A stretch of DNA of 42,573 nt. Source: Rickettsiales bacterium (GTDB lineage Bacteria > Pseudomonadota > Alphaproteobacteria > Rickettsiales > UBA998). Both the position numbers and the translations under genes were made by a program. Below, piece by piece: positions 2,910 to 27,476 of this stretch. The stretch covers positions 1 through 42,573 of the forward strand of contig JAIEPI010000132.1 in the NCBI GenBank assembly GCA_019749855.1, written 5' to 3'. Under the pieces are notes generated by a model, which saw only the letters and a list, made by a program, of their open reading frames with translations, had not been told where the DNA came from and made no database searches. How positions within the stretch are numbered: position 1 is the first letter of the stretch; every line of letters begins with the position of its first letter.

Positions 2910-4070
2910 TTAGGCGCCCTGTGTTTGACGCTGGCGTATAATGGCCAGAATGTAGGAGAGATTCTCTACATGCTCCTCCTCTGAGGATTCAATCATACGC
3001 CGCACCACAAAGTTAGAAAAATGATGACTACCAGGGCGCGCACCCTCGGATAAAACTGCCTTCACAGAATCCAGAAGCAGGCGCACGGCTTTATACATCG
3101 TACCCGGAAGCTGTGTTTTATTATACAGTGCACGGAAGCCGAGGCGACCGCTATCAGACACCAGCATGCGTGCATTCTCTAGTGGAATATTGGCCAGCCG
3201 TGCCAACGACGACTCAAAGAATACTAAATTGCCCTGACACAGTGCATTGATGATAAGTGAGGATGTTAAGCGGCCGCTCTCAAAAAGCTGATCGACCAAT
3301 TTAATGGTTTGAGATTGGTCCACTGAAGCGCCCAACAAAGCGAGCGTTGTGCCTTCTTCCGCGAAGCGTGCACCGGCTTCTAATTGCTCCCTGTCGGCAA
3401 CTCTGCATTTATCCTTAAGCTGTCGCAGCATTTCATCGGAGACAAAATGCGTCAGGCGCTCAACGGCAGCCACGGGTAAGCTGTTGCGCGACATCATACT
3501 CATGACGATATTTTGATCCGACTTCGCCTGTTCAGCAATTTGGAAAAAAGATTTATCTGATATGCGCGCAGACTGGTTATCCAGGACTTCTTTGATAACA
3601 TCAGGTAACTGGGTATTCACTAATGAGCCGGACACAGTTTCAGAGAGTTCCTCTCGCTGCGCAATGGCAATATAGCGCCAGATTTCCTCTGTGTTCTGGA
3701 CAATATCAACGAGATCATCATCCTTGAGAACGCTCGACATGGTGAGCATCGGCACGGCAACCGCCTCTAAGTCCCTTGCTAATGTTAAGGCAATGTCATG
3801 CGGAATGTGCGGGTTGCTCTGAAGACTCTCAGACATCGCGTGCCGGACGCGAATAGCTGAGTCCTGCACGAGGAGGCGAAAAATCTGCTCCGCCACCTGC
3901 ATTTCATTTTCGTTGAGAACATCCGGACTGTAATGTCGGCTCACTTTTTCCAAGACATCAATTTTGGTTTCCAGTGTTGGCTGTTCCAGCAAACGCCGTA
4001 CATCGTCCTGCGTTAGACGCACGGAATCTTGTGGGGTGACAACGATCTCAGTGGATGGTCCGAAGCTCAT
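2910..4070 (-). CDS. DUF2336-family protein (paralog 1)
   Basis: 386-aa ORF. HEAT/ARM-like helical repeats (VRxxxAxxL..NPxxPxDIALxLAxD) are shared with the adjacent paralog, a pattern I associate with alphaproteobacterial DUF2336. Confidence 0.75.
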   Translation of the reverse strand: MSFGPSTEIVVTPQDSVRLTQDDVRRLLEQPTLETKIDVLEKVSRHYSPDVLNENEMQVAEQIFRLLVQDSAIRVRHAMSESLQSNPHIPHDIALTLARDLEAVAVPMLTMSSVLKDDDLVDIVQNTEEIWRYIAIAQREELSETVSGSLVNTQLPDVIKEVLDNQSARISDKSFFQIAEQAKSDQNIVMSMMSRNSLPVAAVERLTHFVSDEMLRQLKDKCRVADREQLEAGARFAEEGTTLALLGASVDQSQTIKLVDQLFESGRLTSSLIINALCQGNLVFFESSLARLANIPLENARMLVSDSGRLGFRALYNKTQLPGTMYKAVRLLLDSVKAVLSEGARPGSHHFSNFVVRRMIESSEEEHVENLSYILAIIRQRQTQGA

Positions 4071-5163
4071 GATCTGCTGCAGTGATAAAGTTAATAACCG
4101 CGTTCATATTCGTGACAAGCTGGTCGTAGCGATGCGCTCGAATATAATCCAACAACTGCTGTGTATAAGTCGCGCTGTCAACATGCTCATTACGTGGAGA
4201 CTGCTGCACGTAACGATAAATCGCATCCAATGCATCCACAAAATTGGCAGGAACACCGGCCGCCGTGCAAAGCGTACGGAAACCTAAAGGGCCTCTGTCC
4301 AAAAGAAGTTTACGCGCACTGTCCTGACTAACATCAGCGCGCGTGGCAAGCGCTGCATCAAAAAACTGCTTTTCTCCCTGAGCTAAGGCGCGCAATGTCA
4401 GCGAAATGCTTAAACGTTTGTTTTTATGCATCTGTTGTACCAAAAGCACTGTCTCCTCTTCGCTCATCCATAAGGTTAAGAAACGAAGCATGGCCGATTC
4501 ACGTTGCAAGTCTGCCTCCTGACTCACCATATTCCATGGGAGACGAAACTTCTTGGTCAGCTGTTTCTTGAGTTGGGTAGAAACCAGCGAATGAAGCTTC
4601 TCAGCCAAACGCACATTCATACCACCACGAAACACCAGGGATTCCAGTATGTCCTGTTCATGACGAAATTCGTTAAGCAAATACTCCAGATCCGCATCAC
4701 CGATATCAGCATCACTATTTCCCAGCAATGAAACAACAACGATTTCGCTACGTGTGGCCACCAGCTGACGACTGACTTTTGCTGATAAATTATGACGGCG
4801 ACTGATCGCCAGCCATTTGCGAACTTCCCTAGTGGAGCGAATAATCTCCAGCAAATCTTCGTCGTTCAACAACATAGAAAACTCAAGTACCGGCATCGCA
4901 ATCTCAGCCGTATCATTGGCTAAAGCCAGCACCACATCACGCGGCACCTGGTGATTTCTTTTTAAATTCTCGGCGATGGCTTTACGTACCATGCTGGAAG
5001 TATCTCGAAGCAATAAACGGAAGATCTCAATAGCGATTTTTGCTTCGTTGGGCGTAAATTGCGAATGGTTAAATTGCTCCGAGACTTTAGAGGCAATATA
5101 GGAGCGCACTTTGGGGGATGGTTCATGAATCAGGCGATTCAAATCGTGGGGCGTAATGCTCAC
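4048..5163 (-). CDS. DUF2336-family protein (paralog 2)
   Basis: 371-aa ORF with a GTG start (5163-5161) and AAGGA 8 nt upstream. It has the same repeat architecture as 2910-4070 (VRKAIAENLKRNHQVPRDVVLALANDTAEIAMPVLE versus VRHAMSESLQSNPHIPHDIALTLARDLEAVAVPMLT). Its 3' end overlaps the next gene's start by 23 nt. Confidence 0.75.
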   Translation of the reverse strand: MSITPHDLNRLIHEPSPKVRSYIASKVSEQFNHSQFTPNEAKIAIEIFRLLLRDTSSMVRKAIAENLKRNHQVPRDVVLALANDTAEIAMPVLEFSMLLNDEDLLEIIRSTREVRKWLAISRRHNLSAKVSRQLVATRSEIVVVSLLGNSDADIGDADLEYLLNEFRHEQDILESLVFRGGMNVRLAEKLHSLVSTQLKKQLTKKFRLPWNMVSQEADLQRESAMLRFLTLWMSEEETVLLVQQMHKNKRLSISLTLRALAQGEKQFFDAALATRADVSQDSARKLLLDRGPLGFRTLCTAAGVPANFVDALDAIYRYVQQSPRNEHVDSATYTQQLLDYIRAHRYDQLVTNMNAVINFITAADHELRTIH

Positions 5164-8068: not shown

Positions 8069-9244
8069 ATGTCGCCATCAGGCTTGGCTGTTTTTATTCG
8101 CGATCACGCGGAAGAGATCATCACCGAGTGGGAAAATTTCGCGCGTACTCTTATTCCGGCAGCGTCCAACATGAGCCCACTGACTTTGCGCGATCATATT
8201 GGGGAAATTCTCGTCTTCATTGAAAAAGATATTGCATCACATCAAACGGCGGCGGAACAAAAGAAAAAGTCGCGTGGCAAGGGACCTGTGCAACTGAAAA
8301 TCAGCGCGGCACAAACACACGCGGCACTGCGTTTGGCGGGTGGGTTTGATATAGACCAGATGGTTTCGGAGTATCGGGCCTTGCGCGCCAGCATTGTCAA
8401 TTTATGGTGTGCCGATAAACCGCAACTCGTAGCAAAAGACTTGCTGGACCTGACACGATTTAACGAATCCATTGATCAGATTCTCGCCGAATCCGTGAGC
8501 CATTACACGCTTAAAGTATCGCAATCCAAGGATCTGTTCATTGGCATTCTCAGCCATGATCTGCGCACACCACTCCATGTCATCACCATGTCGGCGGAGC
8601 TTCAGGCGAATATCGGCACTATGGATGAAAAACAGCGCATGCTGTCCCAGCAGATATTGGAGAGCACCGCGCGTATTACTAAAATTGTCGGCGATCTGCT
8701 CGATGTGACCAGGGCGCGTTTTGGCTCTGGTATCCCCGTCATTCGTGAGTCAATGAATATGGAATTTGTTACACGGCAGATTATGAGCGAAATGCGCGTC
8801 GCTTATCCTGATAGCACGATCACGCTCACCTGCGCGGGCGACATGAAGGGGGAATGGGACAAAGCGCGGATCGGGCAGGTACTGTGCAACCTCATAGGCA
8901 ATGCGATCCAATATAGTTTCGCGCAGACACCTATTGAGCTGCGGCTGGATGGCTCACCAAGCGGCATGACGCTGACGATTCATAATGTTGGAACACCGAT
9001 TGCCCCTGAGAAAATCCCGATGCTGTTTGATTCGTTCGTCCGTGGCATTGACGATAATGGGGAATGCAAAACCAGCGTGAGTGGAAACCTCGGCCTCGGG
9101 CTGTTCATTACACGAGATATTGTGCAATCCCATGGGGGCACCATTGCCGTCAGCTCCAGTGAAGACGAAGGCACTAATTTCACCGTCTATTTACCGTGCG
9201 AGTCAAGCGATGCTTTGGCAAAAGAAGTGGGTAAAGCAAAGTAA
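8069..9244 (+). CDS. Soluble sensor histidine kinase (HisKA plus HATPase_c) with an N-terminal RsbRD_N-like sensor domain
   Basis: H-box ILSHDLRTPL. N/G boxes NLIGNAIQYS and GLGLFITRDIVQSHGGTIAV. No transmembrane segments, and no response regulator in the window. Confidence 0.9.
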   Translation: MSPSGLAVFIRDHAEEIITEWENFARTLIPAASNMSPLTLRDHIGEILVFIEKDIASHQTAAEQKKKSRGKGPVQLKISAAQTHAALRLAGGFDIDQMVSEYRALRASIVNLWCADKPQLVAKDLLDLTRFNESIDQILAESVSHYTLKVSQSKDLFIGILSHDLRTPLHVITMSAELQANIGTMDEKQRMLSQQILESTARITKIVGDLLDVTRARFGSGIPVIRESMNMEFVTRQIMSEMRVAYPDSTITLTCAGDMKGEWDKARIGQVLCNLIGNAIQYSFAQTPIELRLDGSPSGMTLTIHNVGTPIAPEKIPMLFDSFVRGIDDNGECKTSVSGNLGLGLFITRDIVQSHGGTIAVSSSEDEGTNFTVYLPCESSDALAKEVGKAK

Positions 9245-9323
9245 AAAAGTGCAGGGCTCAACCCTTTGCTACAGCTTGCAAAAGGCTTTTGGCGTACTGG
9301 CAGAGTTGCCTGAAAATGAAAAA

Positions 9324-9352
9324 TGGCGTGCGCACAGGCACTCGAACCGCGC
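9324..9352 (-). repeat. Degenerate copy of the 3' end (acceptor/T-arm) of tRNA-Arg
   Basis: tggcgtgc......actcgaacc at 9324-9348 matches 9424-9448 at 21 of 25 positions, offset by exactly 100 bp. The rest cannot be folded into a tRNA. Confidence 0.6.
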
Positions 9353-9423
9353 AAAGCACTCCGCAGGAGTGTTTGCCAATAATACAGGGGGGGGATGAGA
9401 GTCTTTTGGTCTGACCTTGTCAG

Positions 9424-9500
9424 TGGCGTGCCCGGAGGGACTCGAACCCCCGACATTCTGCTTAGAAGGCAGATGCTCTATCCAGCTGAGCTACGGGCAC
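9424..9500 (-). tRNA. tRNA-Arg (anticodon TCT), CCA encoded
   Basis: The reverse complement folds as a cloverleaf: acceptor GTGCCCG/CGGGCAC, D-arm GCTC..GAGC, anticodon arm TCTGC-CTTCTAA-GCAGA, T-arm GGGGG-TTCGAGT-CCCTC, discriminator G, then CCA. Confidence 0.95.
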
Positions 9501-9570
9501 CTGCCGCTGAAACTAGCGAACTCTGCGCCATGCGGCAAGTCACAACGCAAGGATACTCGGGGCCATGATG

Positions 9571-12219
9571 TTATGCTGGCGCGCGCTCGCCTTGTCGCTG
9601 CTGCACCGCCGCTTGCGAAATGGCGCCACCTGGGGTTTGCGATTCACCGTCTCGACGATCTTCACCACCCGTGACCCGTGCGGACTGCCCCGCCGTGGCC
9701 GCCTGTGCCTGTGCGGCTACGGAAGCGGAGATTGGCGCACGGTCGTCTGGCGCATCGTAATCGATTCGTTGCGCGCCTCGCCCTGCCTGCCGGTAGTTTT
9801 GGCGATTCTGGTCGCGCCGCTCGGCGCTATGGCTTCCAGCGACGGCTGCCCCTGCTTGTTGACCAAGCTGAACCATACCCGAGACCTGACGATCTTCTGA
9901 AACACCAGCTGCCGCTTGTGCGCGACGAACCGCTTGCGTTCCTAACTCGGCAGTCGCAAAACCGCCTAATCCTGCGGCAACATTCGCCGCTTCTCCTGCC
10001 ACAACCCCTGCCAGCTCACCAGTAGAAATTTCTCCATTCGCCCTTGCTACGGCCGCTGAGGCAATGCTTGGCACAGCCATCGCCGCACCCACGACCGCGC
10101 CCACAACCGGTATATTTCTTGCAACAGCACCAGCGCCGTGCAAAGCGCCACCTAAGCGTGCTAACATTGATCCCCTCGCCGCACCCTCGACCGCCTCTCC
10201 AGCAGCACGCCCTGCGGAGGGGTGGGCCGGTGCTCCTGCCCCCGGACGAATCGTGGCATCAGGATCAGGCGCCGAAGGCGTAGTAGCGGTGGGCGGCGGT
10301 GTCGTTGATACCGCCGGCGGCGGAGTGACATGCCCCTCCGGTGGAGTCGTGGCAGGGGGTGTCGTTCCCGTTGCGTGCGGCTCAGGTGCGGGAGGCGTGG
10401 ACGTTGAGGCTCCCGCCGAAGCTGCTTCTGCACGGCCCTGTTGTAATCTCTGATTGCCCTGACTAAGCGTTTCACGTGGCAAGGTGAGGGCAGTATTACC
10501 CCCGACACTCGTCAAATGCGGGGTTACTTGCTCCGGTGTTAAACCTACACGGCGCGCGGCTTCAGCGGCACTCACATCACCAGAGAACGTCAACTGCACC
10601 TGCGTTGCAGGGCCGCTGCCATGCGTCGCCGCACCCACAATGCCTGAACCAGCGTAAGGGCCACCTTGTAGCGATTGCAGCATTCCCTGATTGGGTTGGA
10701 ACTCTGGTGTAGGGACCGAGGCAGTGGGCGTGGTTGCAGCGGTTGCACGCGGCGGAGCCTCTGTCGTTGTAGCAGACAGAGGTGGCGTTTCGCGTCCCGA
10801 GGTAGTGGCCGGAGGTGTCTCACGTCCGGCGGCGGCTGTTTCTCGGGCTTGGGCTTCTGCGGCAGCACGTTCTTGTGCCATCAGTGCATCGGCGCGAGCC
10901 TCCCCCTCCGCGCGGAGACGAGCGGCAGTTGCTTGCGGCGATTCAGGAACATCCGGTACGGCTGAGGGCGGTGGCGGCGTATGCGCCGCTGCAGTGGTCG
11001 GGCGCACACTAGCCTCGACTGCATCACCAGCAATAAACACGGCGGCACCCTCAGTATTTCCCGGGCGATGACGAATATCAGCCTGCGGAACACCTAGAAG
11101 GCCCGGCAAACTATCCGTAAAATTGGGATGGTGAGTTACGCGAACGCCTGCGACTCCGTTGTCCATGGAAGGAACTACACTCACGTGAGCCTGCATGTGA
11201 GGCGGAATCCGCTCACGCAACGCGGCTAGGGATGCATCTGAAACTCTGGCAGGCTCAGGAGTTGTGGCGGCATGTGGGGTAGTCGCTCCTGAGGTGGGAG
11301 CACGGCTATCAGGAGTCGCAGCAGTTCCATGCGAGGGTGTGTCAGGTGGCGCCGTCGTTCGATCGGCTAGTTCTGGAGAAGGCCGGCCAGAAGCTTCTTC
11401 AAGTGAAGAAACGCGTGCAGTGCGAGGATGATTATCAATCACTTGTCTTGCCGAATCCCCAGCTACCCTTGCATCCACTTCAATAGGCTCATGTCGGTAG
11501 GCGAAAGAGTTACTGTTAACTCCCATTGCCCCTTGACGATTTAAGTCCTGATTAACTGCAAAAATCTCTGCCGCGGATTGCAGGCGTGGATCTACAGGTC
11601 TGCCGTGACGAATATCTGCCGCAAGACTATTTTGAAAAGTGTGGCGTGTCTCGTGAGCTAGTGTTTCAACCGCTTGCTCAAAGCTACTGGCATTACCTAC
11701 ATGCAATTCAACTCTTCGCCCTGTTGCAGAGCCTGCACGGGGGTCATGCGATGCATCATAATAACTCACGTCAAAACTATGAGGATATGACTGTGCCAAC
11801 GCACCTTCCACATGCTGGAGTGCTCGAGTCCTCTCTTCAATGGAAAGATTGGGCCACTCAGCTCTGGCTCTCTGCACTTCAGGTGTGTCCAAGACACCAC
11901 TAAGATTTTGGGCCACACGTCCATCAATCTCTTGAAGGGCAGCTCGCGAGGCTTCGTCAGGGCGCATTGATCGATAAGCATCAACAACTTGTGCTTGACG
12001 TTCAGGAGACTGCCCAGCCCCCGTGGCCTCTAGTGTGCCAATCAATTGACGTCTGTCACCTTCGCTTAATCCGCTAAGTGGTCGATGTATGGCGGGAGGT
12101 TCGTAAGTTTCGCGTCGCGCAACTATATCTCTGATTCTGGCCGCTTCCGCTTCCAGATCGGCAAAAAAACTATCAGGAATAGCTGCCCGCGCAGTTGATT
12201 CTGGTGTGGATTCCGCCAT
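9571..12219 (-). CDS. Large orphan protein (882 aa) with a zincin-like HExxHxxQ N-terminal domain, a Pro/Thr/Ala-rich linker and a Gly/Ala-rich hydrophobic C-terminal region
   Basis: 2.65-kb open frame that is visibly more GC-rich than its flanks. AHETRH is encoded at 11641-11658. SATGRRVELHVGNASSFEQAVETLAHETRHTFQ resembles the DUF4157 core. GxxxG-type segments lie near residues 690-770. No Sec signal peptide. Confidence 0.7.
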   Translation of the reverse strand: MAESTPESTARAAIPDSFFADLEAEAARIRDIVARRETYEPPAIHRPLSGLSEGDRRQLIGTLEATGAGQSPERQAQVVDAYRSMRPDEASRAALQEIDGRVAQNLSGVLDTPEVQRARAEWPNLSIEERTRALQHVEGALAQSYPHSFDVSYYDASHDPRAGSATGRRVELHVGNASSFEQAVETLAHETRHTFQNSLAADIRHGRPVDPRLQSAAEIFAVNQDLNRQGAMGVNSNSFAYRHEPIEVDARVAGDSARQVIDNHPRTARVSSLEEASGRPSPELADRTTAPPDTPSHGTAATPDSRAPTSGATTPHAATTPEPARVSDASLAALRERIPPHMQAHVSVVPSMDNGVAGVRVTHHPNFTDSLPGLLGVPQADIRHRPGNTEGAAVFIAGDAVEASVRPTTAAAHTPPPPSAVPDVPESPQATAARLRAEGEARADALMAQERAAAEAQARETAAAGRETPPATTSGRETPPLSATTTEAPPRATAATTPTASVPTPEFQPNQGMLQSLQGGPYAGSGIVGAATHGSGPATQVQLTFSGDVSAAEAARRVGLTPEQVTPHLTSVGGNTALTLPRETLSQGNQRLQQGRAEAASAGASTSTPPAPEPHATGTTPPATTPPEGHVTPPPAVSTTPPPTATTPSAPDPDATIRPGAGAPAHPSAGRAAGEAVEGAARGSMLARLGGALHGAGAVARNIPVVGAVVGAAMAVPSIASAAVARANGEISTGELAGVVAGEAANVAAGLGGFATAELGTQAVRRAQAAAGVSEDRQVSGMVQLGQQAGAAVAGSHSAERRDQNRQNYRQAGRGAQRIDYDAPDDRAPISASVAAQAQAATAGQSARVTGGEDRRDGESQTPGGAISQAAVQQRQGERAPA

Positions 12220-12330
12220 TTGGTACTCGCCTAAGTCTCTTAATCTAGACAGGATACACCAAACTTGATTAACGATTCTTAAATTATTGCCGCTAATATT
12301 AGGAGTAATTTTAATTAAATCTTATGTATT

Positions 12331-12768
12331 TCACCGCGCTTCGGCGGGGGGCTTGTTGAAGCGGCCCACATTACCCATCAACTGCTCGAAGAAGCCAAGC
12401 TCATGCCCTTCGGTGGGGGTCACATCGCGGGTGATTTCAATATCGCGCCGTTCATTGAGCTGATGCTTCTTCACATCGGTGACCATGCCATCGGCATCAA
12501 ACGTTACCTGCGTCACCTGCTGCTTGGTCACTTCGGGCGCCATGAAGCCAAATGCCTCCTTCTGCGCCGTGATGTAGTACCAGCGCTCCTCACCGAAATT
12601 GGAGGTGGTGGAGGGCGAGCCGAGCAACTGCATCACATCCTGCCGGTAACTGCGACCCACGACAATTTTTTCCATGTTCTTTTGCGCATCCACATGCCCA
12701 CGCGCATCCACTTTCGGCGCGCAGCTCAGCAAAACGAGGCAGCATGCCAGTCCAATGGGCTGGCGCAT
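12331..12768 (-). CDS. bamE: Outer-membrane assembly lipoprotein BamE (SmpA/OmlA)
   Basis: MRQPIGLACCLVLLSC lipobox followed by GRSYRQDVMQLLGSPSTTSNFGEERWYYI (SmpA_OmlA). The ORF-track start at 12831 is a TTG that overlaps the divergent gene. ATG starts at 12807 or 12768 are more plausible, and the 5' end remains uncertain. Confidence 0.85.
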   Translation of the reverse strand: MRQPIGLACCLVLLSCAPKVDARGHVDAQKNMEKIVVGRSYRQDVMQLLGSPSTTSNFGEERWYYITAQKEAFGFMAPEVTKQQVTQVTFDADGMVTDVKKHQLNERRDIEITRDVTPTEGHELGFFEQLMGNVGRFNKPPAEAR

Positions 12769-12823
12769 ACCGTGCAAATACTGATATAAAGTGGGGAATA
12801 ATCGCATCAGATAAGGACGCCAG

Positions 12824-13381
12824 ATGCTCAACCAGTTGACTCGCCTGTTTTTTCCGTCCGCTGAACGTCAGCGGGCGCACCTCATCTATGTAGCACTGGT
12901 GGAGCAGTCACGAAACCCCTTTTTCTACACCACAAGGCAAGTACCCGATACGCTGGATGGCCGCTTCGAATTAATCCTGCTGCATATGTATCTGGTGTTG
13001 CATCGTTTAAAGGCAGCACATGGCGGGCAGTTTGACGCGAAAGAAAGCGGCTTTGAGCGTGAATTGATTGAAGTGTTTGTCGAGGATATGGATCGCTCGT
13101 TGCGCGAAATTGGCGTCGGTGATCTCGGGGTTGGTCGCCGTGTAAAAGTCATGGCCAATGCGTTTTACGGCCGCTTGCAATCCTATGAAACGGCCCGTCA
13201 GGCTGATGCAGCCGTGCTACAGGATTCACTGGCGCGCAATCTGTACGGAACCACGCAGGCAACACCTGACACGCTGGCGGCGATGGAGGATTATGTGCAA
13301 ACATCCGTAACCGAGTTAGCGGCGCAACCACTCGCCACCATTCAGGAAGGGCGCATCACATTCCTTGCGATGGGCGCATAA
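12824..13381 (+). CDS. Ubiquinol-cytochrome c chaperone (Cbp3-like) family protein
   Basis: ATG start. YVALVEQSRNPFFY...VPDTLDGRFELILLHMYLVLHRL...FVEDMDRSLREIGVGDLGVGRRVK is typical of the Ubiq_cyt_C_chap domain. Confidence 0.85.
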   Translation: MLNQLTRLFFPSAERQRAHLIYVALVEQSRNPFFYTTRQVPDTLDGRFELILLHMYLVLHRLKAAHGGQFDAKESGFERELIEVFVEDMDRSLREIGVGDLGVGRRVKVMANAFYGRLQSYETARQADAAVLQDSLARNLYGTTQATPDTLAAMEDYVQTSVTELAAQPLATIQEGRITFLAMGA

Positions 13382-14509: not shown

Positions 14510-15295
14510 CTAAGCGCTGGTGGCAATAGTGGTCAATGCAACTGTTTGCGCCCCATCAACGTCCGCACTCTCATCAATGGATGAGGACCGGAGGTTGGCT
14601 TCATTACGTGCGGAGGATGCAAAATAGGCTTTCACCCCTGTTTCACGCACCAGCGAAGGCTCACTACGTGACAACACACTCGCCACAAAAGCAGGGCGGT
14701 TATCGTTACTGGCTGCGCGAATCTGGGTGTTATTATTGGCGGCCGTTTGCACCACCACCGCAGCAACCGTAGGGGTATTGACAATGGCCTGACGCGAAGA
14801 AGCCGCTTCTGCTGCGTTTAGTAAAGCAGCCACGCCTGAGGGCGGTGATGGCGGTTTCGACGCATTGCTTGGCTTGTATTTGGTCTGGGTGAACAGCTCA
14901 ATCAAACGCACATCAAGTACGGAGCTCGGAACATTCTCTGTTGCCAGTTGTACCTGCAGGCTCGCGCTATCCTGCGCGGGCAACTGGGCAAAAATTTGTG
15001 CCAGAAACTGTGATGAATAACGGATCGACGACACGTTTAAAGAGGCGCTGGATGAAGCATAACCCCCTGCACTGGACGTGGCGGCGCTGACGTCGGCTTC
15101 ACTGGATAGTGGAGATGCCGGTGTGGACACACTACCACGCAACTGATTTTCAATGCGCCCTTCGGCTGGAGTCGATGCGACCGCATAGCTTGCCAGACGA
15201 ACGCCCGAGGTCACCGCCGGCACAGTTGTGGTCACAATAGGAGCACTGAGCGTGGGCGTCACGGGTGTTGGCGCGGGAAGAATATTCGTTAACAT
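14510..15295 (-). CDS. Ser/Ala/Thr-rich hypothetical protein (261 aa)
   Basis: ATG start preceded by GGAG at 5-nt spacing. Composition is low-complexity, with no signal peptide, no transmembrane helix and no recognisable domain. Confidence 0.55.
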   Translation of the reverse strand: MLTNILPAPTPVTPTLSAPIVTTTVPAVTSGVRLASYAVASTPAEGRIENQLRGSVSTPASPLSSEADVSAATSSAGGYASSSASLNVSSIRYSSQFLAQIFAQLPAQDSASLQVQLATENVPSSVLDVRLIELFTQTKYKPSNASKPPSPPSGVAALLNAAEAASSRQAIVNTPTVAAVVVQTAANNNTQIRAASNDNRPAFVASVLSRSEPSLVRETGVKAYFASSARNEANLRSSSIDESADVDGAQTVALTTIATSA

Positions 15296-23258: not shown

Positions 23259-24527
23259 ATGCGAAGCCCACAGGAACTAGAAAAAGAATGGTCATCCTCT
23301 CCCCGCTGGGCCGGTGTGACGCGGAATTACAGCGCAGAAGATGTGGCGCGCCTGCGCGGCACCGTGGCCATCGATTATTCAATTGCGCGCTTAACGGCTG
23401 AAAAACTATGGGCCTCAATGGGCAGCCTACCCTATGTCAATGCGCTTGGCGCACTCACCGGCAATCAGGCCATGCAACAGGTCAAAGCGGGATTGAAAGC
23501 GATTTATCTCTCGGGTTGGCAAGTCGCCGCCGATGCGAATCTGGCTGGACAGATGTATCCCGATCAATCGCTATACCCGGCGGATTCCGTGCCTTCAGTG
23601 GTGAAACGCATCAATAATGCTCTGCTGCGTGCTGATCAGATTCATCACGCGGAAGGCGATGACAGCATCGACTGGATGCAGCCTATTGTCGCCGATGCGG
23701 AGGCTGGTTTTGGCGGCAATCTCAATGCGTTTGAGCTGATGAAAGCCATGATTGAAGCCGGTGCTGCCGGTGTGCATTTTGAGGATCAGCTTGCCAGCGC
23801 AAAAAAGTGCGGCCATATGGGCGGTAAAGTTCTGGTACCAACACAAGAGCAGGTACAAAAACTACAAGCCGCGCGTCTGGCGGCAGACATTTGCGGCGTT
23901 CCAAGCGTGCTGATTGCACGAACGGATGCGAATGGCGCTTACCTGATTACCAGCGATATTGATCCCTACGATGCCCCTTTCGTGGAGAAAGAGCGCACCG
24001 TGGAAGGATTCCACACCATGAAAGGTGGCATTGAATGTGCCATTTCGCGCGGCCTTGCCTATGCGCCGCATTGTGATCTCATCTGGTGTGAAACCTCGAC
24101 GCCCGACCTCAAAGAGGCGCGTCAGTTTGCCGATGCAATTCACAAAAAATACCCTGGTAAATGGCTGGCCTATAACTGCTCACCTTCCTTCAACTGGCGA
24201 AAAAATCTCGACGATACGACCATCGCCAAATTCCAAAAAGAGCTGGGTGCCATGGGGTATAAATTTCAATTTATTACGCTGGCAGGCTTCCATTCACTCA
24301 ATTACTCCATGTTTGAGGTGGCAACCGCCTATAAAGCACAGGGCATGACGGGCTACGTGCAGTTGCAGGAAAAAGAGTTCGCCGCAGCAGCACATGGCTT
24401 CACCGCGGTGAAGCATCAACGCGAAGTAGGTACCGGCTATTTTGATGAGGTGGCGCAAGCGATCTCAGGCGGCACCTCTTCAACAACCGCGTTGCATGGG
24501 TCAACGGAAGAGCAACAATTTGCGTGA
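23259..24527 (+). CDS. aceA: Isocitrate lyase
   Basis: [15 protein letters not shown] signature (KKCGH catalytic loop). 422 aa, with GGAG upstream of the ATG. Confidence 0.95.
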
Positions 24528-24537
24528 GACGCGCCAC

Positions 24538-25404
24538 ATGGCACGCCTCCTCAATATCCCACTGCTCACTGACGCCTGGCGAATGGCAGTTCGATACGGT
24601 GATGTGCTGGCGCCGGTCACGGTGTTTTTTGGCTTCATTAATGACGCGATCATGCGCGTGGGTGGAACGGGCCACGCTCAACAAGCCGCCATCATCAGTC
24701 AATTATCACAAAGCAGCGGCGGTCTGCAAAGTCTTGCGGCCATCAATACAACCATTGGCACCGCGCATAACCCAGCGGACAGTTTTATCTCAATTGGTCT
24801 GTTGCTGTTAGCCGCTTCGGTTGAACTGGTTATTCTATTGGGGCTGACTGATACATTGATTCAGCGCAAGGGCTTACGGCTGAACGTTCTTTTGCGTTTT
24901 TTCAGGCATGGCTTGATTGGATCACTCCAAGGATTCTGGCGGGGATTTTTTCGCTTTCTGCTTTTTAGTATCGCTCTGTCGGTTGGTATTCTGGCGTTGC
25001 TACTCATGCGCGGCGAGGTGTCGTTTGGCGCCTTGGCACTGGTTGCGATAGCGACATTGGCCGTTTTTATATGGATGATGTGGTTCCTGCTGCCCTACAT
25101 CTTTGCGACACTGGATTGTGTCTTGCATGCTAAGGATTTCGATTCGGCCTTCATCCGTAGTGAGGAAGCGTTGAAGGGACGCTACCTTGAAGTGCTGCTG
25201 ACGCTAGGCATCAGCACCCTGCCCGCTTTATTGAGCAATCTGTTGCTAGCATGGTTGCCTGAATCCTATGGCGCAACGGTGACCATTATCCTCACCAACC
25301 TACTGATGGTTCCAGCTCTGGTGCTTCTGTATCTCTATGCTCGTGATTTTTTTGCTGCCCCAGTTAGCAGCACTGAAACAACAATGTCCGTCAACGCTGA
25401 GTAG
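24538..25404 (+). CDS. Multi-pass membrane protein, function unknown
   Basis: ATG at 24538, 11 nt after the aceA stop (the ORF-track start at 24442 lies inside aceA). Several long hydrophobic helices. No family recognised. Confidence 0.65.
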   Translation: MARLLNIPLLTDAWRMAVRYGDVLAPVTVFFGFINDAIMRVGGTGHAQQAAIISQLSQSSGGLQSLAAINTTIGTAHNPADSFISIGLLLLAASVELVILLGLTDTLIQRKGLRLNVLLRFFRHGLIGSLQGFWRGFFRFLLFSIALSVGILALLLMRGEVSFGALALVAIATLAVFIWMMWFLLPYIFATLDCVLHAKDFDSAFIRSEEALKGRYLEVLLTLGISTLPALLSNLLLAWLPESYGATVTIILTNLLMVPALVLLYLYARDFFAAPVSSTETTMSVNAE

Positions 25405-25820: not shown

Positions 25821-27362
25821 TTAGTTAAGAAGACGATTCAATAACGGACCCGAACTACGGGCCGTTATGCCCGATGGATCGGCATTTACCGTTGAAGCGG
25901 TCGCCGGAGGCACAGGGGTCATCGCTGGATTCGCTGTAGCAGACGCTGAAGCTCCTTCAGTCACGGGCGAGAGCAGCGGAGCGTTAGCGGGACGAACAGT
26001 GACACTCATCGCCGGAGTGGCTGAGGTGGACGATGTGTTAGTGGCAACCGGAGCAATCGAGACCTGAAGGCTCGGCGAATGTGTAAAGGCTGGCGGATGC
26101 GCTACTGCATTTTGAGACGATGGCTCAACGCTCACGAGTGTTTTAGTCACGGGTGATACGGCACTGAGTGGGCTTTGTTTGGCTGGCTCCCGTGTCACCG
26201 CAGGAATCGGCGTGATGGGAACGGATACAGGGGCAGGAGATGGTGGCGCAACAGACACCGCATTGGCCAATGGCATCGCCGTTTGCATTGGCGACGCTTG
26301 TATAGGCGACGGTTGTAAAGACGGAGCTTGCATAGTCGCTGGGGCTGACACTGGCGCAGATACGGGCGCTGAGTGTGCGGTGTGAGGTGCGTCTATGGAC
26401 GATGGCAGTTTTTCATCAGCGGCCGCCGCTTCTTCTTCCTGCAAACGCGCCATGGTTTCCGCCGCTGTTTTTAGCTCTTCAGTGGCTTCACCGGTACGCA
26501 GTTTTTCAATCCGCCGGTCAACTTCAGGAATTTTCAGAACACTTAGCAGGCTACGAACTTCCTGCCGCGCTGCCACATGGGAGATGGAGAGTTTGCCACC
26601 ATTGTCTGTTTCCAGAACATCGAGCACGGTCAGGCCCTGTAAAAACATTTCGCGGAAGATAACGCGCTCAGAGAAACCCGGGGCCACACGGAAACCAATG
26701 CGACGCGCCAGCTCTTCGGTGACCTTCGTCATGAAGCGCTTGTTCCTCGCATCAATGTTAGAAAGACGATTGCGCATGACAATCCAGTCGATGGCGCCAC
26801 CATCGCGCTTGGCACGCTGCAATTTTTGCTCCCATACCATTTCGGAGTAAATACTGGGCTTAACGATGTTGAGCGTTTCACCGTCCACAGAAGCCAGCAC
26901 ATCAAGATCAACAAAGCTGTCATTGATCGGGGTGATGATCGTATTGGCAAAGGAATGCGCCAGACGCGACATGTAGGTATCGTTACCAGGCGTGTCGATG
27001 ATGACAAAGTCACAGCTCGCATACACGCGTGCCAGACCTTTGGCAAAGCGCTCGCGCTCATCGGCTTTGGCTTCTTCACCGGAATCAAACGGGCTTTTCT
27101 GGATGACAATATGATGTGGCATCGGCATGGAAACACCCTGCTTAGCAACCGTTTGGCGACGATTTTCAAAATAACGCGTCAGCGAGCGCTGGCGTGAGTC
27201 AATGTCAATACTGCCAACCGAGAAACCTAAACGCAGCAGAGCGACGATCAGGTGCATGGTGGTGGTGGTTTTTCCCGAACCGCCTTTTTCATTTCCGACA
27301 ATAATGACATGTGCGCGACGAAACCCAGAACTTGCCGTATCGGTTGCCGCTGTCTCACTCAT
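25821..27362 (-). CDS. mipZ: MipZ-type ParA-like ATPase (division-plane positioning) with a long Pro/Ala/Ser/Thr-rich C-terminal extension
   Basis: HVIIVGNEKGGSGKTTTTMHLIVALL (deviant Walker A), then IDIDSRQRSLTRYFENRR as in Caulobacter MipZ. ATG at 27362 is preferred over the GTG at 27410. The last ~220-250 residues are low-complexity. Confidence 0.85.
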   Translation of the reverse strand: MSETAATDTASSGFRRAHVIIVGNEKGGSGKTTTTMHLIVALLRLGFSVGSIDIDSRQRSLTRYFENRRQTVAKQGVSMPMPHHIVIQKSPFDSGEEAKADERERFAKGLARVYASCDFVIIDTPGNDTYMSRLAHSFANTIITPINDSFVDLDVLASVDGETLNIVKPSIYSEMVWEQKLQRAKRDGGAIDWIVMRNRLSNIDARNKRFMTKVTEELARRIGFRVAPGFSERVIFREMFLQGLTVLDVLETDNGGKLSISHVAARQEVRSLLSVLKIPEVDRRIEKLRTGEATEELKTAAETMARLQEEEAAAADEKLPSSIDAPHTAHSAPVSAPVSAPATMQAPSLQPSPIQASPMQTAMPLANAVSVAPPSPAPVSVPITPIPAVTREPAKQSPLSAVSPVTKTLVSVEPSSQNAVAHPPAFTHSPSLQVSIAPVATNTSSTSATPAMSVTVRPANAPLLSPVTEGASASATANPAMTPVPPATASTVNADPSGITARSSGPLLNRLLN

Positions 27363-27476
27363 TGCATCATTCCGCGCCAAAGGGTTGACTAAAGTTAGCG
27401 AATCCTGCACCCAGTGTAAAGCGAGCTTGGCAAAAAAAGTGATGGTCCCGTCATCGCCTATCGAAATGGCGGCTGG

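What the first reader, a model, noticed from the sequence alone, without database searches (positions are those of the whole stretch)
9571..12219. GC-rich 882-aa orphan next to tRNA-Arg: DUF4157-like zincin head, Pro/Thr/Ala linker and Gly/Ala-zipper tail, with no Sec signal
The gene is conspicuously more GC-rich than its neighbours and than its own AT-rich upstream region (12220-12330). It abuts tRNA-Arg, 70 bp from the tRNA 5' end.

The protein has three parts:
- Residues ~160-200 read SATGRRVELHVGNASSFEQAVETLAHETRHTFQ. This resembles the core of Pfam DUF4157 (..A.T.GR.I.f..G......LLAHELtHVvQ), a zincin-like domain that, as far as I recall, marks N-termini of polymorphic-toxin and contractile-injection-system cargo proteins.
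- About 450 residues of Pro/Thr/Ala/Ser-rich, probably disordered sequence follow, including a GRETPP near-repeat.
- A Gly/Ala-rich hydrophobic block with GxxxG spacing comes next (GAVVGAAMAVPSIASAAV ... VVAGEAANVAAGLGGF), then an Arg/Gln-rich tail.

This architecture suggests a secreted effector or membrane-inserting toxin delivered by a non-Sec route. However, no secretion system or immunity gene is adjacent.
Basis: partly seen in the sequence, partly recalled or inferred. Interest (0 to 1): 0.7.

Follow-up and report, generated by a model that had tools for sequence, protein, structure and literature searches.

The report
Head-swapping zincin protein with membrane tail
This gene encodes a long, signal-less protein with a predicted zinc-protease head of an uncatalogued toxin-like family, floppy linkers and a glycine-zipper membrane tail; related bacteria carry unrelated heads at the same chromosomal spot, so it looks like a modular effector with an unknown delivery route.

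Summary
In detail: an 882-aa ORF (9571-12219, minus strand) lies 70 nt from tRNA-Arg(tct). It has no Sec signal, one HExxH, Pro/Thr/Ala linkers, a Gly/Ala hydrophobic block and an Arg/Gln tail.

Three corrections to the interpretation:
- **GC is not a foreign signature.** The excess lies entirely in codon positions 1 and 2 (amino-acid composition). GC3 is below the neighbours (0.44; head 0.34, against 0.55).
- **The head is not DUF4157.** None of 26 family members matches it at E<=5. It belongs to an uncurated zincin family with invariant HExxHxxQ plus a distal Glu. The AF2 model has pLDDT 94, and its weak fold and profile matches are to SprT, IrrE and DUF6782 zincins.
- **The gene is not a tRNA island.** The BamE-gene-tRNA-Arg slot is ancestral. 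Two related genomes hold orthologues with unrelated heads, one of them amidohydrolase-like.

Elsewhere the same zincin domain sits at the C-terminus of large proteins, or behind WXG100. In 5 of 5 cases examined it is followed by a small ORF, three of which are mutually homologous, which resembles an immunity gene.

Best reading: a modular effector-like protein with a swappable enzymatic head and a membrane-inserting tail. The delivery route is unknown, and no secretion or immunity gene is nearby. A tail-anchored, self-acting membrane protease remains a serious rival.

The parts
9571..12219 (-). Complete CDS, 882 aa. It has no Cys, no Sec signal and a modular layout: head, linkers, two conserved middle segments, Gly/Ala zipper and tail.
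   Evidence: It is identical in two independent assemblies.
12184..12219 (-). First ~12 codons (MAESTPESTARA). Together with the upstream intergenic region, they are conserved with the L001 orthologue (MPESATDTTSRA) although the heads that follow are unrelated. This marks the 5' breakpoint of the head cassette.
   Evidence: The DNA alignment ends at window 12185.
11410..12114 (-). Head domain, aa 36-270. It has five N-terminal helices, then a three-stranded sheet, the active-site helix and two further helices. It is a member of an uncurated zincin (gluzincin-type) family.
   Evidence: 27 hits at E<=1e-3, including the window protein itself, in an exhaustive phmmer search. Alignment A1. AF2 pLDDT 94.3, pTM 0.91. 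Zincin-dominated fold hits.
11632..11655 (-). HETRHTFQ, aa 189-196: the HExxHxxQ motif. H189, E190, H193 and Q196 are invariant in 26 sequences.
11479..11487 (-). P245-I246-E247. E247 is invariant and P245 is >=90% conserved. E247 is the candidate third metal ligand, lying at the start of the last helix.
11248..11391 (-). Pro/Thr/Ala linker 1, aa 277-324 (P 20%, T 20%, A 18%). Homology to P0002 resumes at about aa 288, the 3' breakpoint of the head cassette.
10990..11247 (-). Conserved middle segment A, aa 325-410. It is not low-complexity and is 81% identical to P0002.
   Evidence: No Pfam match.
10705..10989 (-). Ala/Pro/Thr linker 2, aa 411-505, containing the two GRETPP copies.
10435..10704 (-). 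Conserved middle segment B, aa 506-595. It is 91% identical to P0002, with pS 0.30 and dN/dS 0.18.
   Evidence: No Pfam match. Not a repeat of segment A.
10150..10434 (-). Ala/Pro/Thr linker 3, aa 596-690.
9955..10146 (-). Gly/Ala-zipper hydrophobic block, aa 692-755. It has two hydrophobic segments (692-727 strong, 736-755 weaker) and is the candidate membrane hairpin.
   Evidence: Equivalent Gly/Ala-rich blocks occur in P0002, the L004 ORF, P0003, P0005 and P0007.
9574..9954 (-). Polar Ala/Gln/Arg/Gly tail, aa 756-882. It includes PISASVAAQAQAA, a motif loosely shared by the three slot orthologues.
   Evidence: The similarity is weak and the composition is biased.
12220..12330 (-). AT-rich (GC 0.297) upstream intergenic region, conserved with L001. 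It is presumed to hold the promoter and 5' UTR, but no sigma-70 consensus site was found.
9424..9500 (-). tRNA-Arg(tct), 70 nt downstream of the stop codon. The same tRNA follows the slot gene in L004.
12331..12831 (-). BamE gene, the upstream synteny anchor of the slot in all three genomes.

Best explanation
The ORF encodes a modular, effector-like protein built on a conserved chassis that sits in an ancestral chromosomal slot (BamE -> gene -> tRNA-Arg) of a small alphaproteobacterial clade.

**Shown**
- The N-terminal ~270 residues form a zincin (gluzincin-type) domain with an intact HExxHxxQ...PxE signature. The family is not curated in Pfam or NCBIfam.
- This head is a swappable cassette. 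Breakpoints lie at about codon 12 and about codon 288. The orthologue in a related genome carries an unrelated head that resembles N-terminal asparagine amidohydrolase, and a third genome carries another unrelated head.
- The chassis is under purifying selection.
- In other phyla the same zincin domain is a terminal module of large proteins. It is fused to WXG100 in one case and was followed by a small ORF in all five cases examined.

**Inferred**
- The head is a protease-type toxin or effector activity.
- The Pro/Thr/Ala linkers act as flexible tethers.
- The C-terminal Gly/Ala-zipper hairpin inserts into or anchors in a membrane. Whether that is the producer's membrane or a target's is unknown.
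- The protein leaves the cytoplasm, if it does, by a non-Sec route that is not encoded nearby.
For: **Head**
- Exhaustive phmmer found 26 relatives, 5 hits at E<=1e-10 counting the query itself.
- Five columns are invariant, H189/E190/H193/Q196/E247.
- AF2 with that alignment gave pLDDT 94.3, with a beta-sheet followed by the active-site helix.
- Foldseek top hits are zincins: PprI/IrrE, M35, ArdC, MATCAP and selecase in the PDB (best E 0.12), and SprT-like and IrrE-like in BFVD (best E 0.015, probability 1.0).
- Weak Pfam hits across members go to DUF6782 'putative metallopeptidase' (7 of 26, best 3.8e-5), SprT-like, YgjP-like and Tox-MPTase2.

**Head swapping on a conserved slot**
- P0002 is syntenic. 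It shares aa ~288-595 at 80-91% identity but has an unrelated head. That head scores PF14736 E=4.4e-5, 23.2 bits against a cutoff of 24.
- UBA1002 has a 464-aa gene with a third head, a Gly-zipper and tRNA-Arg in the same slot.

**Selection**: the middle region evolves at dN/dS 0.18.

**Toxin-like behaviour of the domain elsewhere**
- It lies at the extreme C-terminus of 700-1240-aa proteins.
- It is fused to WXG100 in P0013 (E 1e-10).
- A small same-strand ORF follows in 5 of 5 contexts. Three of these ORFs are mutually homologous across phyla (leave-one-out HMM E 1e-5 to 3e-7).

**Secretion-compatible traits**
- No Sec signal.
- Zero Cys in 882 aa, and likewise in P0003, P0005 and P0007.
- The closest head relatives P0003, P0005 and P0007 also carry Gly-zipper blocks, plus EF-hand loops.
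- GC3 is atypical: z = -4.95 for the head.
Against: - No secretion system, chaperone or immunity-like gene lies in the 42.6-kb window, or next to the alphaproteobacterial relatives P0003, P0005, P0007 and P0002.
- No recognised trafficking domain was found.
- Fold matches are not statistically significant (E >= 0.015, TM 0.2-0.4).
- The glycine-zipper Pfam models do not match the window protein itself.
- The identity of P0002's head rests on a sub-threshold hit, and nothing was found for it in the PDB.
- C-terminal similarity among the three slot proteins is compositional rather than significant by BLASTP.
- Only three slot variants are known. Both metagenome scans found nothing.
- Pro/Ser/Thr/Ala-rich linkers also occur in cytoplasmic proteins of this genome, for example MipZ.
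Confidence: 0.5

Rival explanations
1. It is a tail-anchored inner-membrane protein that acts inside the producer cell. A cytoplasmic zincin head is tethered by a disordered linker to C-terminal transmembrane helices. It would serve as a membrane-localised regulatory protease or scaffold, with the same layout as Caulobacter SpmX (an enzyme-like head without a signal peptide, a Pro-rich disordered region and C-terminal TM helices; this comparison is from my own knowledge). It is not secreted.
For: - No signal peptide, and hydrophobic segments only near the C-terminus.
- No secretion or immunity gene in the window or next to the alphaproteobacterial relatives.
- The slot is ancestral and embedded among housekeeping genes.
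- The middle region is under purifying selection.
- Long Pro/Ser/Thr/Ala-rich extensions also occur on cytoplasmic proteins here, such as MipZ.
- P0003 lies directly after fliL-fliM-DUF6468-MgtE_N on the same strand.
Against: - Orthologues in the same slot carry unrelated heads, which is hard to reconcile with a conserved housekeeping role.
- The same domain behaves as a terminal toxin-like module with a cognate small ORF in other phyla, and it is fused to WXG100.
- Complete absence of Cys.
- Atypical GC3.
Confidence: 0.27
2. It is cargo of a contractile injection system or phage-tail-like particle, analogous to the tape-measure-related effector Tme. A zincin-like N-terminal domain would load the protein into the tube, and the disordered and transmembrane regions would behave like a tape-measure protein.
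For: - The architecture parallels Tme of Streptomyces davawensis: an N-terminal DUF4157 domain, ~70% disorder, multiple predicted TM helices and an exchangeable enzymatic domain (PMC11126660).
- The Gly/Ala-rich region of the L004 orthologue matches phage tail-associated lysin and tape-measure PHROGs (phrog_1047 E=5.7e-14, phrog_167 E=0.002).
Against: - The DUF4157 HMM matches none of 26 family members, even at E<=5.
- The window protein and P0002 have no PHROG hits at E<=1.
- No sheath, tube, baseplate or AAA+ genes occur in the window or in the six related loci examined.
- Tme-like genes are defined by their position inside the CIS cluster.
- The swappable module here is N-terminal, whereas Tme exchanges its C-terminal domain.
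Confidence: 0.1
3. It is a recently acquired GC-rich foreign gene, an islet integrated at tRNA-Arg.
For: - Whole-gene GC is 0.593 against 0.518 for the neighbours, and the gene is adjacent to a tRNA.
- Codon third-position usage is atypical.
- The middle region shows lower synonymous divergence than the flanks (pS 0.30-0.40 against 0.62-0.76). This hints at exchange of part of the gene.
Against: - The GC excess is entirely in GC1 and GC2 (0.72 and 0.61, against 0.59 and 0.41). GC3 is lower than the neighbours, and expected GC from amino-acid composition alone (0.639) exceeds the observed value.
- The gene lies on the 5' side of the tRNA, which is not the usual 3' integration side (established knowledge).
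- There is no integrase nearby.
- The slot is occupied in three related genomes, and the promoter region and first 12 codons are conserved.
- The head has no match in plasmids or phages.
Confidence: 0.05
4. It is a spurious or decaying ORF, made of low-complexity sequence without function.
For: - About half of the protein is Pro/Thr/Ala/Gly-rich low complexity.
- There are very few homologues.
- No promoter consensus was found.
Against: - The 2.6-kb frame is intact.
- dN/dS is 0.11-0.20 over the shared 270 codons, including a linker.
- Catalytic residues are invariant, and the head model has pLDDT 94.
- The slot gene is maintained in three genomes.
Confidence: 0.03

Closest known systems
Zincin metallopeptidases of the SprT-like / IrrE(ImmA)-like / minigluzincin type, and Pfam DUF6782 'putative metallopeptidase'
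   Same: - HExxH lies on a helix that follows a small beta-sheet, with a distal Glu on a later helix.
- These families are the top structural neighbours in both fold libraries.
- They are also the recurrent weak Pfam hits.
   Different: - No member reaches any family's gathering threshold. The window head scores 13.4 bits against DUF6782, whose cutoff is 27.
- TM-scores are only 0.2-0.4.
- This family has its own ~110-residue five-helix N-terminal subdomain.
- It has an invariant Gln three residues after the second His, and a PxE motif.
DUF4157 (PF13699), the zincin-like 'core domain' of CIS/eCIS effectors (Geller et al. 2021, PMC8213781; Nagakubo et al. 2024, PMC11126660)
   Same: - It is an N-terminal zincin-like domain with HExxHxxQ spacing.
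- It is found on long, largely disordered effector proteins with TM helices.
   Different: - The HMM does not match this protein or any of its 26 relatives.
- No CIS genes are nearby.
- DUF4157 is the constant part of those effectors, whereas here the zincin is the variable part.
Tme, the tape-measure-related CIS effector of Streptomyces davawensis (PMC11126660)
   Same: - The overall layout matches: a zincin-like N-terminus, a majority of the protein disordered, a hydrophobic multi-helix region and a modular enzymatic domain.
- The L004 orthologue's Gly-rich region hits phage Tal and TMP profiles.
   Different: - Tme lies inside a CIS cluster upstream of the baseplate genes and carries DUF4157.
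- The window protein has no TMP or PHROG similarity and no CIS neighbours.
X-Tfe effectors of the Xanthomonadales bacteria-killing T4SS (PMC6759196)
   Same: - Variable N-terminal enzymatic heads sit on a conserved C-terminal part.
- There is no Sec signal.
- The genes are scattered around the chromosome.
   Different: - X-Tfes are defined by the XVIPCD domain and come with adjacent immunity genes.
- No Pfam family, and hence no XVIPCD model if this Pfam copy holds one, matched here.
- No immunity-like gene is adjacent.
- The clade is different (Alphaproteobacteria).
Classical polymorphic toxins (Rhs, CdiA, LXG and WXG100-fused toxins)
   Same: - In other phyla the same zincin domain is a C-terminal module followed by a small, conserved ORF, and it is fused to WXG100 in P0013.
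- Unrelated enzymatic modules sit on a shared chassis in the slot orthologues.
   Different: - In the window protein the variable module is N-terminal.
- No trafficking domain is recognisable.
- No immunity gene follows; only a tRNA lies 70 nt downstream.
Glycine-zipper membrane-active proteins (Cdz bacteriocins of Caulobacter; Gly-zipper_Omp/YMGG families; C19orf12-like)
   Same: - The hydrophobic Gly/Ala block has small-xxx-small spacing.
- P0007 and P0003 give weak hits to these Pfam families.
   Different: - The window protein itself does not match those models.
- Cdz proteins are small and secreted by an adjacent T1SS.
- OM glycine-zipper lipoproteins have signal peptides.

Membership tests
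DUF4157 (PF13699) | Match to the Pfam HMM at or near the gathering threshold | tested here: not met
   The protein has no hit at E<=10. None of the 26 head-family members hits at E<=5.
DUF4157 (PF13699) | HExxH followed by Q at +7 (HExxHxxQ), preceded by a beta-strand | tested here: met
HETRHTFQ at aa 189-196. H, E, H and Q are invariant. Strands precede the helix in the model.
DUF4157 (PF13699) | Genomic association with a CIS/eCIS cluster | tested here: not met
   No sheath, tube, baseplate or AAA+ genes occur in the 42.6-kb window or in loci L001-L004 and L007. The rest of the genome is not available.
Zincin / gluzincin metallopeptidase superfamily | HExxH on an alpha-helix that follows a beta-sheet | tested here: met
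   Single HExxH at aa 189. AF2 model with pLDDT 94.3: strands E115-119, E128-131 and E134-138, then helix H145-169 carrying the motif, in domain numbering.
Zincin / gluzincin metallopeptidase superfamily | A conserved third metal ligand (Glu) on a downstream helix | tested here: met
   E247 is invariant and P245 is >=90% conserved in 26 sequences. E247 lies at the start of helix H210-228, in domain numbering.
Zincin / gluzincin metallopeptidase superfamily | Significant structural similarity to solved or predicted zincins | tested here: inconclusive
   Zincins dominate the top hits, but best E is 0.12 (PDB) and 0.015 (BFVD, probability 1.0), with TM 0.2-0.4.
Zincin / gluzincin metallopeptidase superfamily | Zinc binding and peptidase activity | not testable with these tools
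   This needs biochemistry.
Polymorphic toxin systems | Unrelated toxin modules on a shared chassis | tested here: met
   The window protein, P0002 and the L004 ORF occupy the same slot. They share chassis elements but have unrelated heads.
Polymorphic toxin systems | Cognate immunity gene immediately adjacent | tested here: not met
   Only tRNA-Arg follows the gene. An HMM of the partner family finds nothing in the six-frame translation of the window. The feature is met for the C-terminal-head relatives.
Polymorphic toxin systems | Recognisable trafficking domain or linked secretion system | tested here: not met
   No Pfam or NCBIfam domain was found. WXG100 is present only in the relative P0013.
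Tme-like CIS effectors | Remote homology to phage tape-measure proteins | tested here: not met
   The window protein and P0002 have no PHROG hits at E<=1. Only the L004 orthologue hits phrog_1047 and phrog_167.
Tme-like CIS effectors | Largest ORF inside a CIS cluster, upstream of the baseplate genes | tested here: not met
   The neighbours are BamE, a ubiquinol-cytochrome c chaperone, ApbA, a histidine kinase and an MFS transporter.
X-Tfe (T4SS effectors) | C-terminal XVIPCD domain | tested here: not met
   No Pfam match in the C-terminal 200 aa other than Ysc84 and TctA at E>0.05. That this Pfam copy holds an XVIPCD model is my recollection, not something I verified.
Glycine-zipper families (PF13488, PF13441) | HMM match to the Gly-zipper models | tested here: not met
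   The window protein has no hit. P0007 is sub-threshold (22.2 bits against a cutoff of 25). Small-xxx-small spacing is present.
tRNA-linked genomic island | Integrase, flanking tRNA-derived repeats, and absence from related genomes | tested here: not met
   No integrase was found. The gene lies 5' of the tRNA. The slot is occupied in L001 and L004. Repeats were not searched explicitly.

The most novel reading that the evidence does not exclude
A previously undescribed class of alphaproteobacterial effectors. A chromosomally fixed chassis (a short N-terminal leader, disordered linkers, two small folded segments and a Gly/Ala-zipper membrane hairpin) accepts interchangeable N-terminal enzymatic heads, such as a zincin or an amidohydrolase-like domain. 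It delivers them by a route unrelated to the known Sec, T3SS, T6SS or CIS signals. The zincin head would define a new toxin family with its own cognate small immunity family in other phyla.
Probability: 0.3. Interest if true: 0.7.

Novelty: new variant of a known kind. Interest (0 to 1): 0.5.

Why it matters
If the reading is right, three things follow.

- **A new toxin-type domain family.** It defines an uncatalogued zincin domain family spread across at least four phyla. The family has a clear catalytic signature and a candidate cognate immunity family, and both could be added to domain databases and toxin-discovery pipelines.
- **An unusual form of toxin polymorphism.** The variable enzymatic module is N-terminal and sits in a fixed housekeeping slot, not at the C-terminus of a recognised trafficking scaffold.
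- **An open delivery question.** How does a signal-less, Cys-free, glycine-zipper-tailed protein reach its target when no dedicated machine is encoded nearby?

It is also a methodological caution. High GC next to a tRNA was here a pure amino-acid-composition effect, not evidence of horizontal transfer.

Tried and rejected
- **Single-sequence AF2 of the head** gave pLDDT 57.7, and its fold search was meaningless, with pyruvate kinases on top. It was superseded by the alignment-based model.
- **Word-indexed homology searches** with the head alone and with the head profile found nothing, or a single protein. Only the exhaustive HMMER search worked.
- **Profile search of A1 against PDB sequences** gave no credible hit. 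The best was DNA ligase III, E 0.007, over a helical stretch.
- **Internal duplication of the two middle segments** was rejected, with no BLASTP alignment.
- **The middle segments, the C-terminal 200 aa and the L004 ORF** have no Pfam matches.
- **PADLOC** gave nothing.
- **PDB sequence searches of the P0002 and L004 heads** gave nothing.
- **Metagenome scans**, with BamE as synteny anchor and with the conserved middle region, found nothing.
- **tblastn of the head** against plasmids and phages gave no match.
- **Sigma-70 promoter scan** of 9200-12900 found no sites. The only terminator-like site lies beyond the tRNA.
- **Closer strains** (L011, L012) were 100% identical, so they gave no polymorphism data.
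- **C-terminal homology among the three slot proteins** could not be shown statistically. I treat it as positional and architectural only.

Full report
**1. The observation**

The ORF is real and lies where stated: 9571..12219 on the minus strand, ATG start, 882 aa. tRNA-Arg(tct) is at 9424..9500 on the same strand, so the stop codon and the tRNA 5' end are 70 nt apart. The upstream intergenic region 12220-12330 has GC 0.297.

The protein has one HExxH, HETRH at aa 189-193, and two GRETPP copies at aa 465 and 475. Hydrophobic Gly/Ala segments lie at aa 692-727 and 736-755, and the tail is rich in Gln and Arg. There is no N-terminal hydrophobic stretch: maximum hydropathy in the first 60 residues is 0.26. 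The protein contains no cysteine. Two other assemblies, Logan SRR33435819 and ENA ERZ27314161, contain the identical sequence, so it is not an assembly chimera.

**2. GC content**

The gene's GC is 0.593, against 0.518 for 28 reference ORFs of the window. The excess lies entirely in codon positions 1 and 2 (GC1 0.723 and GC2 0.611, against 0.593 and 0.410). It therefore reflects the Ala/Pro/Gly/Arg/Thr-rich composition. With the window's own codon usage the amino-acid sequence would predict GC 0.639, which is more than observed.

GC3 is lower than in the neighbours: 0.444 overall and 0.344 in the head, against 0.55. The head's GC3 lies 4.95 SD below 276-codon windows of the reference genes. 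The same low GC3 is seen in the slot gene of both related genomes, and in the head module of P0003. 'GC-rich therefore foreign' is thus wrong, although codon usage is atypical in the opposite direction. Long Pro/Ser/Thr/Ala-rich stretches are also common in this genome, for example a ~230-aa extension on MipZ and the ORF at 14510-15295.

**3. The head**

Pfam gives no DUF4157 match at E<=10. Only sub-threshold hits to DUF6055 and Ysc84 appear. NCBIfam and PDB sequence searches are empty.

Word-indexed searches failed. An exhaustive phmmer search of 1.84 billion representatives with aa 1-276 found 26 relatives at E<=1e-3. The closest are P0003 (E 2e-44, 44% identity), P0004 and P0005.

A 26-sequence alignment (A1) has exactly five invariant columns: H189, E190, H193, Q196 and E247, in full-protein numbering. 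P245 is conserved in >=90% of sequences. This is the HExxH-plus-distal-Glu pattern of gluzincins.

AlphaFold2 with that alignment gave pLDDT 94.3 and pTM 0.91. The model has five N-terminal helices, a three-stranded sheet, the motif-bearing helix and two more helices. Foldseek found no significant neighbour, but the top of both lists consists of zincins:
- In the PDB: PprI/IrrE, two M35 aspzincins, ArdC, MATCAP, selecase and jannalysin (best E 0.12).
- In BFVD: SprT-like and IrrE-like proteins (best E 0.015, probability 1.0).

Scanning all 26 members against Pfam at E<=5 gave DUF6782 'putative metallopeptidase' in 7, SprT-like in 2, and YgjP-like, BSP, DUF5700 and Tox-MPTase2 in one each. DUF4157 matched none.

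Conclusion: the head is a zincin of an uncurated family.

**4. What the domain does elsewhere**

The domain occupies different positions in different proteins:
- It is N-terminal in the window protein and in P0007.
- It is internal in P0003 and P0005.
- It is at the extreme C-terminus of 700-1240-aa proteins (P0011, P0018, P0019, P0021, P0022, P0026, P0028).
- It stands alone in P0004 and P0008.

P0013 fuses it to a bona fide WXG100 domain (E 1e-10, above threshold). Members come from Alphaproteobacteria, Aquabacterium, a Planctomycetota MAG and Nocardioides.

In all five contexts examined for relatives where the head is at or near the C-terminus, a small same-strand ORF of 111-155 aa follows directly, with spacing from an 8-bp overlap to a 214-bp gap. 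Three of these small proteins, from Aquabacterium, Planctomycetota and a JGI contig, are mutually homologous (leave-one-out HMM E 1e-5 to 3e-7). A fourth is marginal, and the Nocardioides one is DUF4919. None of the homologous set is in Pfam.

This is the layout of toxin-immunity pairs. No homologue of that small protein is encoded in the window or in any alphaproteobacterial locus.

**5. The slot and head swapping**

The only full-length relative in 5.8 billion clusters is P0002 (785 aa). Its gene lies in the same position, after ApbA, the ubiquinol-cytochrome c chaperone and BamE.

DNA alignment shows backbone-level similarity (69-77%) through the flanking genes, the AT-rich upstream region and the first ~35 nt of the CDS. 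There is then no similarity across the head. Similarity resumes at window 11357 (aa ~288) and runs to 10449 (aa ~590). The first 12 residues are similar (MAESTPESTARA against MPESATDTTSRA), but the heads are unrelated. P0002's head gives a near-threshold match to N-terminal asparagine amidohydrolase (PF14736: E 4.4e-5, 23.2 bits against a cutoff of 24).

A third genome, Alphaproteobacteria bacterium UBA1002, has RpoC >=90% identical to the window's. It has BamE, then a 464-aa ORF, then tRNA-Arg(tct). That ORF has a third, unrelated N-terminus, no middle region, a Gly/Ala-zipper block and a similar tail.

The slot is therefore ancestral, and the tRNA adjacency is inherited synteny. The gene lies on the tRNA's 5' side, which is not the usual integration side. 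In L001 the downstream neighbour is a class I aminoacyl-tRNA synthetase instead of the tRNA.

**6. Selection and mosaicism**

Between the window and L001, flanking genes are 69-78% identical in protein with saturated synonymous divergence (pS 0.62-0.76). The shared middle region is 83% identical, and segment B 91%. Its pS is 0.40 (segment B 0.30) and its dN/dS is 0.18. Even the Ala/Pro/Thr linker has dN/dS 0.11. The C-terminal third is only 35% identical, with dN/dS 0.41.

The chassis is therefore a functional coding sequence. Its lower synonymous divergence suggests that this segment was exchanged more recently than the genomes diverged, or that it is under unusual synonymous constraint. I could not distinguish between these.

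**7. The C-terminal part**

Two hydrophobic Gly/Ala segments with small-xxx-small spacing form a candidate membrane hairpin. The Pfam glycine-zipper models do not match the window protein. They give sub-threshold hits in P0007 and P0003, the closest head relatives, which share the order head, linker, Gly-zipper and add EF-hand loops.

The L004 orthologue's Gly-rich region matches phage tail-associated lysin and tape-measure PHROGs (E 5.7e-14 and 0.002). The window protein and P0002 do not. BLASTP finds no significant C-terminal similarity among the three slot proteins. The shared P-x-S-x-SV-x-AQ motif is only suggestive.

**8. Context**

The window encodes RNase D, two DUF2336 proteins, YetF, an MFS transporter, a histidine kinase, BamE, a ubiquinol-cytochrome c chaperone, ApbA, SCO1, PCuAC, an epimerase, isocitrate lyase, MipZ and ribosomal protein L10. 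By synteny with L001, and by size, it also holds Gmk, KsgA, SurA, LptD, RpoB and RpoC.

It encodes no secretion system, chaperone, integrase or immunity-like gene. The same holds around P0003, P0005 and P0007. P0003 directly follows fliL-fliM-DUF6468-MgtE_N.

**9. Mechanism**

My best reading (confidence about 0.5) is a modular effector-like protein with four working parts:
- a swappable N-terminal enzymatic head, here a zincin that is probably an active protease because its signature is intact;
- flexible tethers;
- two small conserved segments of unknown role;
- a membrane-inserting Gly/Ala hairpin.

The shown steps are the domain identity at superfamily level, the head swapping, purifying selection, and the toxin-like genomic behaviour of the domain elsewhere. 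The inferred steps are catalysis, membrane insertion, export and the target.

The main rival (about 0.27) is a tail-anchored, self-acting membrane protease or scaffold of the SpmX type. It explains the lack of secretion and immunity genes, but not the unrelated heads. The CIS-cargo idea (about 0.1) has a striking architectural parallel in Tme (PMC11126660), but it fails the DUF4157 and synteny tests. Whole-gene horizontal acquisition and a spurious ORF are largely excluded.

**10. Novelty**

The pieces are of known kinds: a zincin toxin domain, polymorphic modularity and a glycine zipper. Three aspects appear undescribed:
- the zincin family and its small partner family are uncurated;
- the variable module is N-terminal and sits in a fixed housekeeping slot;
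- no delivery route is apparent.

A full-text search for DUF6782 returned no paper. The DUF4157 literature concerns CIS effectors only. I rate this a new variant of a known kind, of moderate interest.

Noticed in passing
L006:11731-12078, L008:12518-12853, L009:5149-5523, L010:4736-5128 (and L005:9086-9553): A small same-strand ORF (111-155 aa) directly follows every C-terminal-head relative examined. Three are mutually homologous across phyla, one is marginal, and none of that set is in Pfam. The Nocardioides one is DUF4919. This is a candidate cognate immunity or partner family for the zincin domain.
   Followed up: partly
window 10435-11247 vs L001 10826-11614: The shared middle region shows much lower synonymous divergence (pS 0.30-0.40) than the flanking housekeeping genes (pS 0.62-0.76). 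This suggests either recent exchange of this segment between lineages or unusual synonymous constraint.
   Followed up: partly
window 25821-27410 (-): MipZ is 529 aa. The MipZ domain covers aa 34-295 and is followed by a ~230-aa Pro/Ser/Ala/Thr/Val-rich low-complexity extension. The homologue on the related JGI contig L013 is 446 aa.
   Followed up: no
window 14510-15295 (-); L001 6792-7616: A 261-aa Ser/Ala/Thr/Val-rich ORF with no Pfam match and unusually high GC2 (0.567). An unannotated 274-aa ORF occupies the equivalent position in L001, though the two DNA stretches did not align.
   Followed up: no
window 2910-4070 and 4048-5163 (-): Two tandem DUF2336 paralogues, overlapping by 23 nt.
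   Followed up: no
L002 6781-13837: P0003, the closest head relative (1278 aa: head, Gly-zipper, EF-hands), lies directly downstream of fliL-fliM-DUF6468-MgtE_N on the same strand, about 100 nt after the last gene. It may be linked to the flagellar regulon or export, or this may be coincidence.
   Followed up: no
P0005 (L007 8001-12539): This 1512-aa relative has an N-terminal hydrophobic segment (aa 25-50) and a second, different HExxH stretch (RHEIGHG, about aa 183) upstream of the shared zincin domain, so it may carry two metallopeptidase modules. P0003, P0005 and P0007 all end in canonical EF-hand loops.
   Followed up: no
L004 10601-11995: In the UBA1002 slot ORF, aa 131-361 match phrog_1047 'tail associated lysin' (E 5.7e-14) and a tape-measure PHROG. 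The window protein and P0002 do not match. This may reflect shared Gly-rich transmembrane composition or a real phage-tail link.
   Followed up: partly
L001 12490-13149: Synteny breaks immediately downstream of the slot gene. L001 has a class I aminoacyl-tRNA synthetase there and no tRNA-Arg, whereas the window and L004 have tRNA-Arg. The 3' side of the slot is therefore a rearrangement point.
   Followed up: partly
window 24442-25404 (+), 27477-28961 (-), 41285-41740 (-): Three further ORFs without any Pfam match: a 320-aa Leu-rich probable membrane protein overlapping the 3' end of isocitrate lyase, a 494-aa charged protein, and a 151-aa protein next to tRNA-Trp.
   Followed up: no
L005 7705-8004: The 99-aa ORF overlapping the start of the Nocardioides head protein P0029 weakly resembles EspC, a type VII ESX protein (E 0.025). 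This is consistent with T7SS-linked delivery in actinobacterial members.
   Followed up: no
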